A stretch of DNA of 64,000 nucleotides from Candidatus Nomurabacteria bacterium (GTDB taxonomy: Bacteria > Patescibacteriota > Minisyncoccia > Phycocordibacterales > UBA5272): assembly GCA_028286645.1 (NCBI GenBank), contig JAQBRF010000002.1:122518-186517 (forward strand), read 5' to 3'. Below the pieces are notes generated by a model, which saw only the letters and a list, made by a program, of their open reading frames with translations, ran no database searches and was not told the origin of the DNA. Positions 10,694 to 61,513 of the stretch are shown here, one piece after another; positions within the stretch are counted from its first letter, which is position 1; every line of letters begins with the position of its first letter. The translations under genes and the position numbers were made by a program.

Positions 10694-10863
10694 TTTTTCA
10701 AAGAAAATTACTTCATATACTGCGTTGCTCGAAATTTTCCTCCATGCGCCGTACTATAAGTACGCCTTAGTCGTAAAAATTTCTCGCGCCTTGTATCTAA
10801 AGCAATTTTCTTTGAAAAAATCTCGGAATTTCTTCTGAAGGACCCACCTGATATACTTCTCAT

Positions 10864-13570: not shown

Positions 13571-13615
13571 AGAAGTAGTTTACAGTTTTCAGCTGTCAGT
13601 TACCAGTTAATATAT

Positions 13616-13652
13616 AAATACTAACGGCGGCCTTAGGCCGCCGTTAGTATTT
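13616..13652. terminator. Perfect 17-bp-stem palindrome (bidirectional terminator) downstream of the NYN gene
   Basis: aaatactaacggcggcc tta ggccgccgttagtattt, flanked by A-rich and T-rich runs. Confidence 0.6.
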
Positions 13653-13677
13653 ATATTTCTGAAAAACTGTTTACGAA

Positions 13678-14298
13678 TTAAACTTTATCTTCCCCAGTGA
13701 ATATACCTAAATCTTCATCAGAAAACTCTGAAGTCTTTGACGAGTCAGGCTTCTTTGAAGTTCCTTTTCTTTTCGGTCCACGATGAGATCTATAACCGAT
13801 TAGGAATTTCTCGGGAGTGTCGCACATATCAATAAAGTCTTCACATGCTTCTCGCAATTTAGTTGATGAAGAGCGTCCGAATGAAATTACTTCAACCTGC
13901 ACGCCGAAATGTTCTTTTAAGAAGTTTACAAGCGGTACGAAGTCCCCATCCCCAGTGGCCAACACTATAGTATCGACTTTTGGAGCAAGTCGTATAGCGT
14001 CCACTGCCAGTCCGACGTCCCAGTCCGCTTTTTTACTGCCGCCGTAGAAAATCTGGAGATCCTTAGTCTTGGTTTCTATTCCAAGCTTAGTAAGCGCTTC
14101 AAAGAAGTTGGTTTCATCCCCTGCTTCGGTGGTAATTACGTATGCAAGAGCGCGGATTAGCTTTCGCTTTCCGACGGACGCACTCATCACTTCCCCGAAG
14201 TTTACTTTTGAGTTATATAAATTTTTTGCACTGTGGTATAGATTTTGAGTATCTATAAATACTGCGACACGCTGGTCGCCATGTTTTATTACTGACAT
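13678..14298 (-). CDS. NYN/LabA-like (PIN-fold) domain protein
   Basis: VAVFIDTQNLYHS and IVLATGDGDFVPLV are typical of the LabA/NYN (DUF88) family. Confidence 0.75.
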   Translation of the reverse strand: MSVIKHGDQRVAVFIDTQNLYHSAKNLYNSKVNFGEVMSASVGKRKLIRALAYVITTEAGDETNFFEALTKLGIETKTKDLQIFYGGSKKADWDVGLAVDAIRLAPKVDTIVLATGDGDFVPLVNFLKEHFGVQVEVISFGRSSSTKLREACEDFIDMCDTPEKFLIGYRSHRGPKRKGTSKKPDSSKTSEFSDEDLGIFTGEDKV

Positions 14299-14393
14299 AA
14301 TTATGGGTAGTTTTTAGTTTCCAGTTATCAGTTTTTAGTTAAAAACGTACAACAGAAACAATTTAATATTAAAAAAGAAACTATAGTTAGTTT

Positions 14394-14493
14394 ACCCCCA
14401 CACCAAAGTTTATACAACAAGTAACTCTTTTAGTTAATATAATTGGAAAGATTATTATTTTAATAACAAAAATTCAAACTTTGGTGTGGGGGT
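14394..14493. repeat. Perfect 18-bp inverted repeat pair (ACCCCCACACCAAAGTTT / AAACTTTGGTGTGGGGGT) around 64 bp of AT-rich DNA
   Basis: Shares the core CCCCACACCAAA with the inverted repeats flanking the GIY-YIG gene at 51993-52288. Confidence 0.6.
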
Positions 14494-14632
14494 TTATCAC
14501 GATATTTAAGAACGACTTAAATTGTTCCGGATACGAGGCGTGCAGAGGTTTTAGAAGGAGGTGTAGATTATACTACTTCAACTAATAAAACTGATAGCAC
14601 AACAAAGTAGATGGGATAATTTTAGACGCTTC

Positions 14633-14896
14633 TTATTTTAGCCCGAGTTTTTTGACAACCGCATCATAACGCTTTTTGTTTGAAGTTTGCAAATATTTCA
14701 AATGTGTTCTTCGGTTGGCCACCATCTGAATAAGCCCTCTTCTTGAGTGGTTATCCTTCTTGTGCACCTTAAGATGATCCGTTAATTCCTGGATCTTTTT
14801 ACTTAAAAGAGACACCTGGACCTCGGGAGATCCAGTATCCTTTGCGTGAATTTGAGTATTTTTAATAGCAATTGCCTTTTTTCGAGTTGTAAGCAT
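14633..14896 (-). CDS. rpsO: 30S ribosomal protein S15
   Basis: [35 protein letters not shown] matches the S15 consensus. Length 87 aa. Confidence 0.95.
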
Positions 14897-41085: not shown

Positions 41086-41141
41086 AGTTTAAATAATAAA
41101 ACCGCCACAGAGTGGCAGTTTTATTATTTAAAGAGACTCTA

Positions 41142-42359: not shown

Positions 42360-42712
42360 GTTTCCTACACTACTGGAGGAGAAAAGACATTGCAACAAAA
42401 GTAAAAGGACGATATTTTACAAGGACAGAAAGTAGATATAAATATAAAAGACAGTTATCCACAGTTAATTACTTGCACATAAAAGACAGTGGTTGTAATA
42501 TAAAGGACGTAGGTAAGTGAATTGTCAAAGACGCTCGCCGGGTGTACCGGTAAAAACAGTTTGTACAAATTTCTTACCCCATTGATCTTTCCATCTCCGG
42601 CACGTGAAGTTATCATTAAGTTGCCGGACTAGACCCCTTTTAAGTTTACGTTTCTGCTTCTCATTACTAGTTATCTAGGTTGTGAAACCAATGTAGCTAA
42701 CCTCTTTTTGAG

Positions 42713-42776
42713 ACATCCCCTACAATATGTGTACGAAGCTGTTGCTCGCACACATATTGTAGGGGATTTCTTTTTG
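42713..42776 (+). terminator. Strong hairpin (17-bp stem) plus T-run; plus-strand terminator with no annotated upstream CDS
   Basis: tcccctacaatatgtgt acgaagctgttgctcgc acacatattgtagggga followed by TTTCTTTTT. Confidence 0.5.
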
Positions 42777-51118: not shown

Positions 51119-51985
51119 ATGGAATACTTAGTACACATTTTAATCTTCGTTTCGATTTATGGAATCATCGCCCTCTCCCTTGACCTAGTAGTAGGAGTCG
51201 CAGGCCTCCTCTCTGTTACTCAAGCAGCGTTTTATGGAATAGGAGCGTACGTTACCGCGCTTTTATTATTAGGAACTGGGATGAATTTCTTCTTAGCCGC
51301 AATTATCGGGATGATAGTCACGGCTGTGATCGCTCTTGGGGTGGGAGTTGTATTTTCTAGATTTAAATCAGAATTTTATGCGTTAGGATCTTTTGGATTC
51401 AATATCATTGTCTTTAGCATTTTCTTAAATTGGCAATCAGTCACTCGTGGACCGCTAGGGATCCCTGGAATCCCCCGCCCAGAAATATTCGGATTTCAGT
51501 TTTCTGAAAATTCAGCATTCCTTGTTCTTACTTTAGTTATTTTGGCTATTGCTTATGGAGTTTATACATGGATTGAAAAGTCATCATTTGGAAGAGTATT
51601 AAAGGCCATTCGCGAAGATGAAGAGGCGATAAAAGTATTTGGTTATACAACGAGCTATTACAAGTTGGTCATTTTTGTAATTTCTTCAATGCTGGCAGCT
51701 CTTGCAGGATCACTGTTTGCTACTTACATCACTTTCATTGATCCATCGAGCTTTTCATTAAATGAATCGATCTTTATGCTTTCGATAATTATCCTTGGCG
51801 GTCTTTCTTCTAAGCGCGGCGCATTACTTGGGGCATTCTGTTTAATCGTGTTGCCAGAAGTATTGCGATTCGTAGGCTTTCCATCAGATATCGCGGCACA
51901 AATGAGACAAGTTACGTATGGACTTATTTTAATTCTTCTTATGTTGTATCGCCCACAAGGATTGATGGGCGAATTCCGTTTATGA
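51119..51985 (+). CDS. livM: Branched-chain amino acid ABC transporter permease (LivM-like)
   Basis: Multi-TM protein. LSLDLVVGVAGLLSVTQAAFYGIGAYVTAL is a LivM/BraE family signature. Confidence 0.85.
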   Translation: MEYLVHILIFVSIYGIIALSLDLVVGVAGLLSVTQAAFYGIGAYVTALLLLGTGMNFFLAAIIGMIVTAVIALGVGVVFSRFKSEFYALGSFGFNIIVFSIFLNWQSVTRGPLGIPGIPRPEIFGFQFSENSAFLVLTLVILAIAYGVYTWIEKSSFGRVLKAIREDEEAIKVFGYTTSYYKLVIFVISSMLAALAGSLFATYITFIDPSSFSLNESIFMLSIIILGGLSSKRGALLGAFCLIVLPEVLRFVGFPSDIAAQMRQVTYGLILILLMLYRPQGLMGEFRL

Positions 51986-51992
51986 TGTTTTA

Positions 51993-52288
51993 TCCCCACA
52001 CCAAATAAAAATGTTTTATCTTTACATTTTACGCAGCTTGAAAGACAAAAAACTTATACATAGGCTCAACCAATGATCTCAAACGCCGGTTTAGTTTACA
52101 TAATAATAAAAAAGTAAATTCTACCAAATCTCGTGCACCGTTTGAGTTGCTCTACTACGAAGCTTACAAAAGTGAAAAAGATGCACGAGTTAGTGAAAGT
52201 AATTTAAAATTAAGAAGCAGAGCATTGTCGCAACTCAAACTACGTCTAGTGGAGACATTAAAATAACCGTCTATTTGGTGTGGGGGTG
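51993..52288. mobile_element. Putative miniature element: GIY-YIG nuclease gene bounded by terminal inverted repeats ATCCCCACACCAAATA / TATTTGGTGTGGGGGT
   Basis: Inverted repeats of 14-16 bp at 51993-52008 and 52273-52288. A related inverted repeat pair with no cargo occurs at 14394-14493. Confidence 0.45.
52011..52266 (+). pseudogene. GIY-YIG nuclease family (UPF0213/YhbQ-like) gene with a +/-1 frameshift in an A6 run
   Basis: Frame 1 gives MFYLYILRSLKDKKL then a stop. The adjacent frame continues YIGSTNDLKRRFSLHNN...SRAPFELLYYEAYKSEKDARVSESNLK. Together this is a complete GIY-YIG domain. Shift at 52046-52052 (gacaaaaaactt). Confidence 0.7.
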
Positions 52289-59873: not shown

Positions 59874-59920
59874 AGAAAATATAAAAGTCCTGACATGAAG
59901 TCAGGACTTTTATATTTTTG

Positions 59921-59991
59921 TGCGGCGTAAGGGAATCGAACCCTTGTCCCCTGCTTGGAAGGCAGGTATTCTACCACTAAACCAACACCGC
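59921..59991 (-). tRNA. tRNA-Gly (anticodon UCC)
   Basis: Acceptor gcggtgt/acgccgc. Anticodon stem cctgc/gcagg with loop cuUCCaa. T-arm aaggg TTCGATT ccctt. 71 nt. Confidence 0.85.
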
Positions 59992-60324
59992 TTGCTCAGA
60001 CACTCTATCATATTTTTATTTCATTTTCTAGACTACTAGATAATTTAAGATCATAAGTACTACTATTAGTACCCCAAGAGATAAAAGCTTGTTTTTCCAA
60101 ACAATCAAAAAAAAGTCTTTAAACATAAGCATTAATATTGAATATACTGTTCCCATAATATGTAGACGATTTGGAAGATGAAATATTTAGTACTTTGTGC
60201 AGAGAGTTTCTCCAACAAATAAACTTTTACCGTGTAAAAGTTTTTTGCTTTGGCCTCACGGCATGATTTACTAATCAGCCGACGCTCGCGATTTCTAATG
60301 CTTTAGAAATAATGCTCCGCCCTT

Positions 60325-61004: not shown

Positions 61005-61395
61005 GTTGTTTCACGTGAAACGTTTGTCTTTATTTTCCTTTATAATTAATGACCCTGACCTTTTATAAAACCGTTATATATCAATGCTATTTTACAATTA
61101 AAGCCACCATTTGTACAATGTGCCCTCTAGGTACTTTACTGTCTCTTATGCACACAACCCACAGGTTTATCCACAGTTAACAAATCTGTCTCTTGGTGTC
61201 GATTTGTTTTGAGAACCTCTCGGTTCTCAACGCTATGCTCTCTCCTCCACGGAAAACCCATATGTGCTTGGTTTTCCGACCCTTTCCGAGCCTTCCCGAA
61301 TTCTTCAAGTTGCTGGTATTCGGGAATAGTCTAGAGGAGGGGACAGCCCTTTAAATTTCCCTTATTTTATTGCTCATGTTAGAATTTAAGCCAAT

Positions 61396-61466
61396 GCGGT
61401 GTTGGTTTAGTGGTAGAACACGTCCTTGCCAAGGATGAGACAGGAGTTCGATTCTCCTACGCCGCA
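61396..61466 (+). tRNA. tRNA-Gly (anticodon GCC)
   Basis: Acceptor gcggtgt/acgccgc. Anticodon stem cgtcc/ggatg (one G-U pair) with loop uuGCCaa. T-arm aggag TTCGATT ctcct. 71 nt. Confidence 0.85.
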
Positions 61467-61513
61467 CAAAAAGCGAAAGCTATTGAGCTTTTTGTGCGGC
61501 GTAAGCGACTGAA
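61450..61513. repeat. Inverted repeat formed by the tRNA-Gly(GCC) 3' end and a decayed inverted tRNA-Gly 3' copy
   Basis: TACGCCGCACAAAAAGC gaaagctattga GCTTTTTGTGCGGCGTA is a 17-bp perfect inverted repeat. It continues ...agcgactgaactgc, which resembles the reverse complement of a gttcgattccctt T-arm. Confidence 0.5.

What the first reader, a model, noticed from the sequence alone, without database searches (positions are those of the whole stretch)
14394..14493. Empty copy of the same inverted repeat pair between the NYN gene and rpsO
A perfect 18-bp inverted repeat, ACCCCCACACCAAAGTTT ... AAACTTTGGTGTGGGGGT, encloses only 64 bp of AT-rich non-coding DNA. Its core CCCCACACCAAA is identical to the repeats flanking the GIY-YIG cassette 37 kb away. 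That is what a cargo-less or excised copy of the same element would look like. It could also be a protein-binding palindrome.
Basis: seen in the sequence. Interest (0 to 1): 0.55.

Follow-up and report, generated by a model that had tools for sequence, protein, structure and literature searches.

The report
Mobile hairpin repeat tied to GIY-YIG nuclease
The 100-bp palindrome between rpsO and the NYN gene is a gene-less, recently inserted copy of a hairpin repeat whose conserved arms enclose a tiny GIY-YIG nuclease gene in many candidate-phyla-radiation bacteria, so it looks like the passive member of a minimal, little-described mobile element.

Summary
A perfect 18-bp inverted repeat (14394-14411 / 14476-14493) encloses 64 bp, and its core recurs only around the 84-aa GIY-YIG ORF at 51994-52286.

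The link to GIY-YIG is general. In 48 of 84 homologous GIY-YIG loci, from Patescibacteria, Omnitrophota, Margulisiibacteriota and others, the same core CCCCACACCAA / TTGGTGTGGGG flanks the ORF. Gene-less pairs are common: 20 in those loci and at least 120 metagenome contigs.

The window copy is an insertion, not a relic. Four related genomes lack it at the orthologous rpsO-NYN spacer. Removing the 98-bp element plus one TTTA makes the spacers colinear. Four-nt direct repeats abut the arms far above control (12/20 and 13/48 against 4.3%).

The inner stem covaries. An arm variant (CCTA) co-occurs with two residue changes in the nuclease.

The closest known system is Ssn/SRM (small GIY-YIG ssDNA nucleases with hairpin repeats, 2025). 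Differences here: the published SRM pattern does not match, the gene sits inside the hairpin, and there are insertion signatures. Sequence membership in Ssn could not be tested.

Verdict: a non-autonomous member of a nuclease-associated mobile hairpin family; a new variant of a known kind.

The parts
14395..14492 (.). Stand-alone (gene-less) hairpin element of 98 bp: C5ACACCAAAGTTT ... AAACTTTGGTGTG5 with a 64-nt AT-rich loop.
   Evidence: It is absent from the orthologous spacer in L087, L094, L090/L091 and L092/L093.
14395..14411 (+). Left arm: conserved core CCCCACACCAA at 14396-14406, followed by the locus-specific inner stem AGTTT.
14476..14492 (+). Right arm: AAACT followed by TTGGTGTGGGG(G).
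14391..14394 (.). Left copy of the 4-nt direct repeat TTTA, a putative target-site duplication.
14493..14496 (.). Right copy of the 4-nt direct repeat TTTA.
51992..52006 (+). Left arm of the GIY-YIG cassette, ATCCCCACACCAAAT.
52011..52266 (+). GIY-YIG nuclease ORF. It gives 84 aa once one A is removed from the A6 run at 52047-52052; as assembled it is frameshifted.
   Evidence: frames; PF01541, E=5.7e-17; hundreds of homologues at 65-76% identity.
52273..52287 (+). Right arm of the GIY-YIG cassette, ATTTGGTGTGGGGGT. It starts 6 nt after the stop codon.
14633..14896 (-). rpsO (ribosomal protein S15), the upstream neighbour of the insertion.
13678..14298 (-). NYN-domain gene, the downstream neighbour. 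It is 100% identical to a protein of a Candidatus Nomurabacteria MAG.

Best explanation
The feature at 14395-14492 is a non-autonomous, gene-less member of a family of mobile hairpin elements. The family is defined by inverted arms with the core (A)C4-5ACACC(A/T)A ... T(T/A)GGTGTG4-5(T). The gene-carrying form of the family holds an 84-aa single-domain GIY-YIG nuclease ORF in the loop of the same hairpin, and the window has one such cassette at 51992-52287. The element inserted into the rpsO-NYN spacer in this Nomurabacteria lineage and duplicated TTTA.

Shown: the arms are conserved across phyla and are positionally locked to this GIY-YIG subfamily. The stem is maintained by compensatory change. 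The window copy is an insertion relative to related genomes. Short direct repeats flank many copies. An arm variant co-occurs with specific residue changes in the nuclease.

Inferred: by analogy with SsnA/NTS, the nuclease recognises the arm or hairpin when the DNA is single-stranded or extruded. It cuts at the foot of the stem, and this activity, together with host repair or replication, mobilises both the cassette and the gene-less copies in trans. Whether the host also exploits the repeats, for example to restrict ssDNA or recombination as in Neisseria, is unknown.
For: (1) The core flanks the GIY-YIG ORF in inverted orientation in 48 of 84 loci from many phyla. The median distance from arm to ATG is 9 nt and from stop codon to arm is 1 nt.
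(3) The orthologous rpsO-NYN spacers measure 226, 227, 148 and 143 bp against 334 bp in the window. Deleting the 98-bp element plus one TTTA gives a gap-free alignment across the junction.
(4) Exact 4-nt direct repeats abut the C-run and G-run in 12/20 gene-less copies and 13/48 cassettes, against 4.3% in the cross-locus control (binomial P 4e-12 and 9e-8). The metagenome set gives 44/124 against 9%.
(5) On the arm alignment, 81.5% of cells pair, against about 45% when partners are slid. The covariation score is 0.32 against 0.08-0.09, and 0/500 shuffles reach it. All 10 inner-stem pairs change on both sides. The inner stem extends by 6 bp or more in 50% of elements against 4.6% in the control.
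(6) The CCTA/TAGG arm variant goes with Ala70/Asn71 in the nuclease (8/8 Asn) instead of Ser/Arg (31/32 Arg). Seven of 8 CCTA proteins are each other's nearest neighbours.
(7) The protein is a confident GIY-YIG fold (pLDDT 94.5), closest to UPF0213 and the Slx1 nuclease domain. Catalytic-type residues are invariant and the ORF is intact in 45/48 cassettes.
(8) There is published precedent: Ssn nucleases bind and cut ssDNA next to hairpin repeats that flank their own genes (PMC11893778).
Against: No biochemistry exists for this subfamily. A GIY-YIG domain is not known to perform strand transfer, so how an 84-aa nuclease would achieve insertion with a duplication is unexplained. About half of the copies have no detectable direct repeat, and repeat length varies from 4 to 11 nt. 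The window's own nuclease gene is frameshifted as assembled, and I could not check this in another assembly. The arm-to-protein covariation may reflect a single clade, that is, one evolutionary event. Loops of gene-less copies are unrelated between genomes (110/136 singletons), so a simple master-copy model does not fit across lineages. No cognate nuclease gene lay within the flanks of the 120 metagenome copies; only one window of the source genome was available for counting copies.
Confidence: 0.62

Rival explanations
1. The arms are terminal inverted repeats of an ordinary DDE-type insertion sequence encoded elsewhere. The window copy is its MITE, and the GIY-YIG ORF is merely a passenger captured between the repeats.
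For: The 4-bp direct repeats are mostly of the form TNNA or CNNG, and the 98-bp AT-rich body looks like a classical MITE produced by a DDE transposase.
Against: In about 1.8 Mb of fetched sequence no arm pair encloses anything but this GIY-YIG ORF or a short non-coding loop. The association with one narrow GIY-YIG subfamily persists across phyla. Arm and nuclease residues co-vary. Direct repeats are of variable length.
Confidence: 0.13
2. The hairpin is a pre-existing host repeat, and the GIY-YIG gene is a homing-type selfish gene that inserts into hairpin loops. On this reading the window copy is an unoccupied homing site, not a mobile element.
For: The gene always sits in the loop. Inner stems are locus-specific, as expected if different hairpins were invaded. 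Gene-less hairpins far outnumber cassettes.
Against: The gene-less window copy is itself an insertion with a flanking duplication. Cassettes also carry direct repeats outside the arms (13/48). The compact form CCAATTATGTTT...AAACATAATTGG recurs in unrelated genomes, so arms and gene travel together. The 84-aa protein has no separate DNA-binding domain of the kind homing GIY-YIG enzymes use.
Confidence: 0.12
3. It is an RNA-level element, such as a terminator, a stabilising 3' hairpin or a small RNA acting on rpsO or NYN expression.
For: It lies between two co-oriented genes and forms a very stable stem. In 11 cassettes the stem includes the start codon and in 29 the stop codon, which could mask translation.
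Against: There is no T-run and no terminator call. No Rfam family matches; the only hits are microRNA precursor models far below their gathering scores. The loop is unstructured and not conserved. The element is absent from relatives that share the same operon. The arms read the same on both strands, and direct repeats flank the element.
Confidence: 0.05

Closest known systems
Ssn nucleases with Ssn-related motifs (SRM/NTS) - Chenal et al., Nat Commun 2025 (PMC11893778)
   Same: Both have a small single-domain GIY-YIG protein (94 aa in N. meningitidis, 84 aa here). In both, the gene is bracketed by hairpin-forming inverted repeats that are also scattered through the genome without the gene. 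Those authors already noted the IS-like look of NTS-ssnA-NTS.
   Different: The published SRM search pattern finds nothing here: 0 matches within 500 bp of 84 loci and 0 in the hairpins. Here each side of the gene carries only one half of the hairpin, so the gene lies in the loop; in Neisseria complete short hairpins flank the gene. The hosts are Patescibacteria and other uncultured phyla that the paper does not mention. Flanking direct repeats and an insertion polymorphism are seen here and are not reported there. Sequence membership (cd10448, or blastp to SsnA CAX49033.1) could not be tested.
REP/BIME repeats with RAYT (TnpA-REP) transposases; REPINs
   Same: A single enzyme gene is flanked by inverted copies of a short repeat, and the repeat also exists as many gene-less inverted doublets that form hairpins.
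   Different: The enzyme here is a GIY-YIG nuclease, not an HUH/Y1 transposase. The copies here show short flanking direct repeats.
Classical bacterial MITEs (for example Correia elements, or MITEs derived from the IS5 or IS630 families)
   Same: All are about 100 bp with terminal inverted repeats, an AT-rich body, short target-site duplications, an intergenic location, and a longer partner with the same ends.
   Different: The longer partner encodes no recognised transposase, only an 84-aa nuclease. Loops are unrelated between genomes, while the 11-13-nt arm core is conserved across phyla.
IS200/IS605 family (hairpin-recognising ssDNA transposition)
   Same: Both depend on DNA hairpins at the element ends, and the encoded protein is small.
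   Different: IS200/IS605 elements have no terminal inverted repeats spanning the element and no target duplication, and they use an HUH enzyme.

Membership tests
Ssn / SRM system | Single-domain GIY-YIG protein under 150 aa | tested here: met
   The protein is 84 aa. It matches PF01541 over residues 1-71. The AF2 model is one GIY-YIG domain plus a C-terminal helix, pLDDT 94.5. The nearest solved structures are UPF0213 and Slx1.
Ssn / SRM system | Protein falls in CDD cd10448, or gives blastp E<1e-10 to N. meningitidis SsnA | not testable with these tools
   Neither CDD nor the SsnA sequence was available. NCBIfam has no model for it. No supplementary files are held for the paper. A plasmid tblastn found only a Bacillus yazA.
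Ssn / SRM system | Gene flanked on both sides by the hairpin repeat | tested here: met
   48 of 84 loci have the core on both sides in inverted orientation. However, each side is a half-hairpin. Complete hairpins on both sides were seen only in L013.
Ssn / SRM system | The same repeat is dispersed in the genome without the gene | tested here: met
   The window copy at 14395-14492; 20 gene-less pairs in genome loci; at least 120 metagenome contigs.
Ssn / SRM system | Repeat matches the published SRM degenerate sequence | tested here: not met
   0 matches in the flanks of 84 loci, 0 in the hairpins and 0 in the window.
Ssn / SRM system | Site-specific cleavage of ssDNA only | not testable with these tools
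   This needs purified protein and oligonucleotide substrates.
MITE (non-autonomous TIR element) | Short, non-coding, with terminal inverted repeats | tested here: met
   98 bp with 17-18-bp perfect arms. The only ORF of 40 aa or more listed over it is the N-terminal tail of a 59-aa reading frame (14069-14248, plus strand) lying antisense to the NYN gene; nothing coding lies within the element.
MITE (non-autonomous TIR element) | Target-site duplication and presence/absence polymorphism | tested here: met
   TTTA lies on both sides, and the element is absent in four related genomes.
MITE (non-autonomous TIR element) | Autonomous partner with the same ends that encodes a transposase | tested here: inconclusive
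   A partner with the same ends exists, but it encodes only a GIY-YIG nuclease. No DDE, HUH or serine/tyrosine enzyme was found between arms.
REP / RAYT | Associated HUH (Y1) transposase | tested here: not met
   The enclosed protein is GIY-YIG.
GIY-YIG homing endonuclease (I-TevI type) | Nuclease domain tethered to a separate DNA-binding domain; no inverted repeats at the gene's ends | tested here: not met
   The protein is 84 aa with a single domain, and conserved inverted repeats are present.
Intrinsic terminator | GC-rich short-loop stem followed by a T-run | tested here: not met
   The loop is 64 nt and no T-run follows. The scan did not call it.

The most novel reading that the evidence does not exclude
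These are autonomous, minimal transposable elements of a kind not catalogued for prokaryotes. Each is a roughly 290-bp unit whose only gene is an 84-aa GIY-YIG nuclease nested in the loop of its own hairpin-forming terminal repeats. They make short (mostly 4-bp, TNNA/CNNG) target duplications, spawn gene-less hairpin derivatives, and are spread across Patescibacteria, Omnitrophota and other uncultured phyla. When they land in the 5' end of a tRNA gene that starts with a G-run, the element's terminal G-run regenerates the tRNA 5' end.
Probability: 0.4. Interest if true: 0.85.

Novelty: new variant of a known kind. Interest (0 to 1): 0.7.

Why it matters
If the nuclease mobilises these hairpins, this would be one of the smallest self-contained mobile elements known. 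It would also be the first prokaryotic transposon-like element built on a GIY-YIG nuclease. That bears directly on the open question left by the 2025 Ssn work: are nuclease-plus-hairpin pairs selfish elements, or host tools?

The family offers a natural specificity pair (CCAA with Ser-Arg, CCTA with Ala-Asn). That pair makes DNA recognition by an 84-aa enzyme directly testable, which is relevant to programmable ssDNA cutting.

For genome annotation of candidate-phyla-radiation bacteria, it explains a recurrent G/C-rich palindrome in AT-rich intergenic DNA, and it explains many orphan 'GIY-YIG family protein' genes.

Tried and rejected
- **Rfam.** Gathering-threshold and E-value modes found no family; only generic microRNA precursor hairpin models matched, far below threshold.
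- **Terminator and promoter scan.** Nothing was called at the element.
- **Deletion-derivative test.** An nhmmer profile of 47 cassette interiors found nothing in the gene-less loops. The 'excised cassette' idea was dropped.
- **Conserved-loop or small-RNA idea.** Loops are unrelated between genomes and are not unusually structured: mean z -0.8, window +0.1.
- **tRNA 3'-end mimic.** The arm resembles CCCCCAC-A-CCA, but it sits on the 5' side of the hairpin on both strands. Rejected as a structural mimic.
- **Strand-bias test.** G·T mismatches (15) against A·C mismatches (11) show no bias. This cannot separate RNA from DNA, or one strand from the other.
- **Neighbouring paralogous GIY-YIG genes.** They have no inverted repeats of their own.
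- **Viral contigs.** No stand-alone pairs were found.
- **Plasmid tblastn.** It returned only a Bacillus yazA.
- **NCBIfam.** No informative model.
- **Naming more distant relatives.** The cluster look-up returned only 'GIY-YIG nuclease family protein' from a Nitrospirota MAG.
- **Re-checking the frameshift.** Three attempts to fetch another assembly of the cassette region failed because the neighbouring proteins are not on record with those start codons.
- **Search syntax.** I used N{11,41}WN{11,41} instead.

Full report
**What is there.**
The window is 39% G+C. It comes from a Candidatus Nomurabacteria MAG: the NYN protein is 100% identical to JWN37_168, on a 251-kb contig.

At 14394-14411 and 14476-14493 there is a perfect 18-bp inverted repeat with 64 nt between the arms. 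It sits in the 334-bp spacer between rpsO and a NYN-domain gene, both on the minus strand.

The 12-mer CCCCACACCAAA occurs four times in 64 kb, as two inverted pairs. The expectation is 0.26, and 0 of 100 shuffles reach four.

The second pair brackets a GIY-YIG ORF. The left arm is 51992-52006, the ATG is at 52011, the stop codon is 52264-52266, and the right arm is 52273-52287. That ORF is interrupted by one extra A in an A6 run (52047-52052). With five A's it encodes an 84-aa protein matching PF01541 at E=5.7e-17.

**The link to GIY-YIG is general.**
The repaired protein has hundreds of homologues at 65-76% identity, mostly from Patescibacteria. The first contexts I fetched already showed ACCCCCACACCAA ... 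TTGGTGTGGGGGT a few nucleotides outside the start and stop codons.

A scan of one genome per species with a profile of the family gave 80 further loci, from Patescibacteria, Omnitrophota, Margulisiibacteriota, Elusimicrobia and others. Allowing one mismatch, the 11-nt core flanks the ORF in inverted orientation in 48 of 84 loci.
- The median distance from core to ATG is 9 nt; in eleven cases it is exactly 2 nt.
- The median distance from stop codon to core is 1 nt.
- The gene therefore fills the loop of a hairpin and has no room for signals of its own.

The same loci hold 20 pairs without a gene, including the window's. Their loops measure 4-14 nt (nine cases), 36-55 nt, 74-80 nt (six cases, window 74) and 101-117 nt.

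None of those contigs had the cognate nuclease gene within the fetched flanks. Gene-less copies are thus normally far from the gene, as in the window (37 kb).

**The stem is selected or copied as a pair.**
I built a gap-free alignment of 57 elements, each with 4 outer, 11 core and 10 inner positions per arm.
- 81.5% of cells pair, against 44-46% when partners are slid.
- The covariation score is 0.32, against 0.08-0.09 for the slid controls. 0 of 500 shuffles reach the observed value.
- All ten inner-stem pairs show changes on both sides, and the outermost two flank positions do not pair.
- Independently, the inner stem extends by 6 bp or more in 50% of elements, against 4.6% when left and right arms come from different loci.

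In a widespread compact form the inner stem is CCAATTATGTTT / AAACATAATTGG. The start codon pairs with the sequence next to the stop codon.

Core variants change on both arms together: CCTA/TAGG in eight cassettes, CACC.../...GGTG, and ...ACTAA/TTAGT....

**The window copy is an insertion.**
The rpsO-NYN synteny is conserved in relatives whose NYN proteins are 85-88% identical. Their spacers are 226, 227, 148 and 143 bp, and none contains the motif.

After removing the 98-bp element (14395-14492) and one copy of TTTA, the window spacer is 272 bp. It then aligns with L087 and L094 with no gap at the junction...ATCGTGATAAAC-TAACTATAGTTTCT against ...GTCGCGGGGTATAC-TAACTATAGTTTCT on the gene strand.

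The loop is unrelated to the GIY-YIG gene. It is also unrelated to loops in other genomes, where 110 of 136 are singletons. Copies within one genome can be similar, as in the SDBU01 contigs and L013.

**Flanking direct repeats.**
I took the 4 nt immediately outside the C-run and the G-run and asked how often they are identical.
- 12 of 20 gene-less copies and 13 of 48 cassettes match, against 4.3% in a cross-locus control (binomial P 4e-12 and 9e-8).
- In the metagenome set, 44 of 124 match, against 9%.

The repeats are diverse: TTTA, TAAA, TGGA, TTGA, TCAA, TAGA, CTTG, CAAG, CACG and CGCG. Almost all have the form TNNA or CNNG.

Some are longer, 7-11 nt, and many copies have none. The signature is therefore real but not that of a strict fixed-length duplication.

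**Insertions at tRNA genes.**
Five cassettes, at four independent sites, have the right arm running straight into the 5' end of a tRNA gene. The first 7-11 nt of that tRNA are repeated to the left of the left arm.

For L016, L030, L041 and L047 this is what a 4-bp duplication would produce after insertion behind position 7-8 of a tRNA that begins with G's. The element's terminal G-run plus the duplicated 4 nt rebuilds the tRNA 5' end. This reading is my inference from the sequences. L043, with a longer duplication, does not fit a 4-bp model.

**The protein.**
- The family alignment has invariant Tyr5, Tyr16, Gly18, Arg26, His30, Asn31, Glu50 and Glu62.
- The AF2 model (pLDDT 94.5) is a GIY-YIG core followed by a long C-terminal helix.
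- The nearest solved structures are UPF0213 BH0048 and the Slx1 nuclease domain, a structure-selective nuclease.
- In a library of 1.84 billion cluster representatives, the profile finds 17,200 proteins at E<=1e-3 but only 14 at E<=1e-30. This is a narrow subfamily of a large group.
- All eight cassettes with CCTA arms have Ala70-Asn71 in that helix (N in 8/8), whereas CCAA cassettes have Ser-Arg (R in 31/32). Seven of the eight are each other's nearest neighbours. This fits co-evolution of nuclease and site, but it may represent a single event.
- Paralogous GIY-YIG genes next to some cassettes have no inverted repeats.

**Comparison with what is known.**
The closest described system is Ssn/SRM (PMC11893778). 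It consists of 94-aa single-domain GIY-YIG nucleases that bind a hairpin repeat and cut ssDNA just upstream of it. Their genes are flanked by the repeat, and hundreds of further copies lie in the genome.

That paper points out the IS-like architecture and the parallel with REP/RAYT. It reports neither target duplications nor Patescibacteria.

Its degenerate SRM pattern matches nothing here. Here the gene lies inside one hairpin rather than between two. I could not obtain the SsnA sequence or CDD, so membership by sequence is open.

Full-text searches found no other description of prokaryotic GIY-YIG elements with terminal repeats and duplications.

**Mechanism and rivals.**
I consider it most likely (about 0.6) that the nuclease recognises the arms in hairpin or ssDNA form and, with host functions, mobilises cassettes and gene-less copies. 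The recognition and cutting steps are inferred.

The rivals are:
- A trans-acting conventional transposase with the nuclease as a passenger (0.13). No such gene was seen between arms in about 1.8 Mb.
- A homing gene that invades pre-existing hairpins (0.12). The gene-less copy is itself an insertion.
- An RNA element (0.05). There is no T-run, the element is not conserved in relatives, and the arms are the same on both strands.

**Verdict.**
This is a new variant of a recently described kind, with a reasonable chance of being a distinct, minimal class of mobile element.

Noticed in passing
window 52047-52052: The GIY-YIG ORF is frameshifted by one extra A in an A6 run. With A5 it reads through as an 84-aa protein. 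This could be a real pseudogene or an assembly error in a homopolymer.
   Followed up: partly
window 51985-51994 and 52011-52020: A 10-bp direct repeat, ATGTTTTATC, brackets the core of the cassette's left arm. The first copy overlaps the stop codon of the livM-like permease, exactly where the GIY-YIG start sits in the syntenic locus L002, which lacks a left arm. This suggests a nested insertion, gene conversion or deletion between repeats.
   Followed up: partly
L002 3220-3474 versus window 51119-52287: A GIY-YIG gene sits directly after the same permease gene in a distant relative. The permeases are 61% identical but the nucleases 74%, so the nuclease is better conserved than its neighbour. 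L002 keeps only a degenerate right arm (ATTGTGTGGGTATC).
   Followed up: partly
L016 10260-10339, L030 10259-10351, L041 1989-2074, L047 2497-2582, L043 10268-10351; L007 13337; L033 9804-9977: Cassette right arms are fused to the 5' ends of tRNA genes (Ala, Tyr, Ile, Ala), with the first 7-11 nt of the tRNA repeated at the left flank. A solo arm sits at a tRNA-Ala 5' end, and one gene-less element overlaps the CCA end of a tRNA-Met.
   Followed up: partly
L013 9317-9415 and 10260-10358: Two complete hairpin elements of about 100 bp, roughly 88% alike over 33 nt and in inverted orientation, flank the GIY-YIG gene. This is the only locus seen that resembles the NTS-ssnA-NTS layout of Neisseria.
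   Followed up: no
L035 1272-1688 and L058 7410-7740: The arrangement is [short complete hairpin][GIY-YIG gene][single minus-orientation arm]. The first plus-orientation arm could therefore pair with either of two partners.
   Followed up: no
Omnitrophota-type loci L028, L049, L063, L065, L068, L070, L071: The inverted repeat extends outward (GAATTnAC before the core). It is embedded in a longer conserved flank (…GCTGGCCGAATT… / …AATTCGCAGACGG…), as if the cassette sits inside another repeat.
   Followed up: no
window 13612-13656: A perfect 22-nt palindrome, ATATAAATACTAACGGCGGCCT A AGGCCGCCGTTAGTATTTATAT, lies just downstream of the NYN gene and is probably its terminator hairpin. Further strong hairpins lie at 42711-42771 and 41088-41132.
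   Followed up: no
window 10694-10819: Another inverted repeat with a long spacer: 27-nt arms, 89% complementary, 72 nt apart. It is unrelated in sequence to the element studied.
   Followed up: no
window 59915-60011 and 61376-61472: A 97-nt inverted repeat at 78% complementarity, formed by two tRNA-Gly genes (anticodons TCC and GCC) on opposite strands.
   Followed up: no
L002 1935-2336: A gene with 23S_rRNA_IVP / bAvd family hits is inserted between the two permease genes of the relative. It is absent at that position in the window.
   Followed up: no
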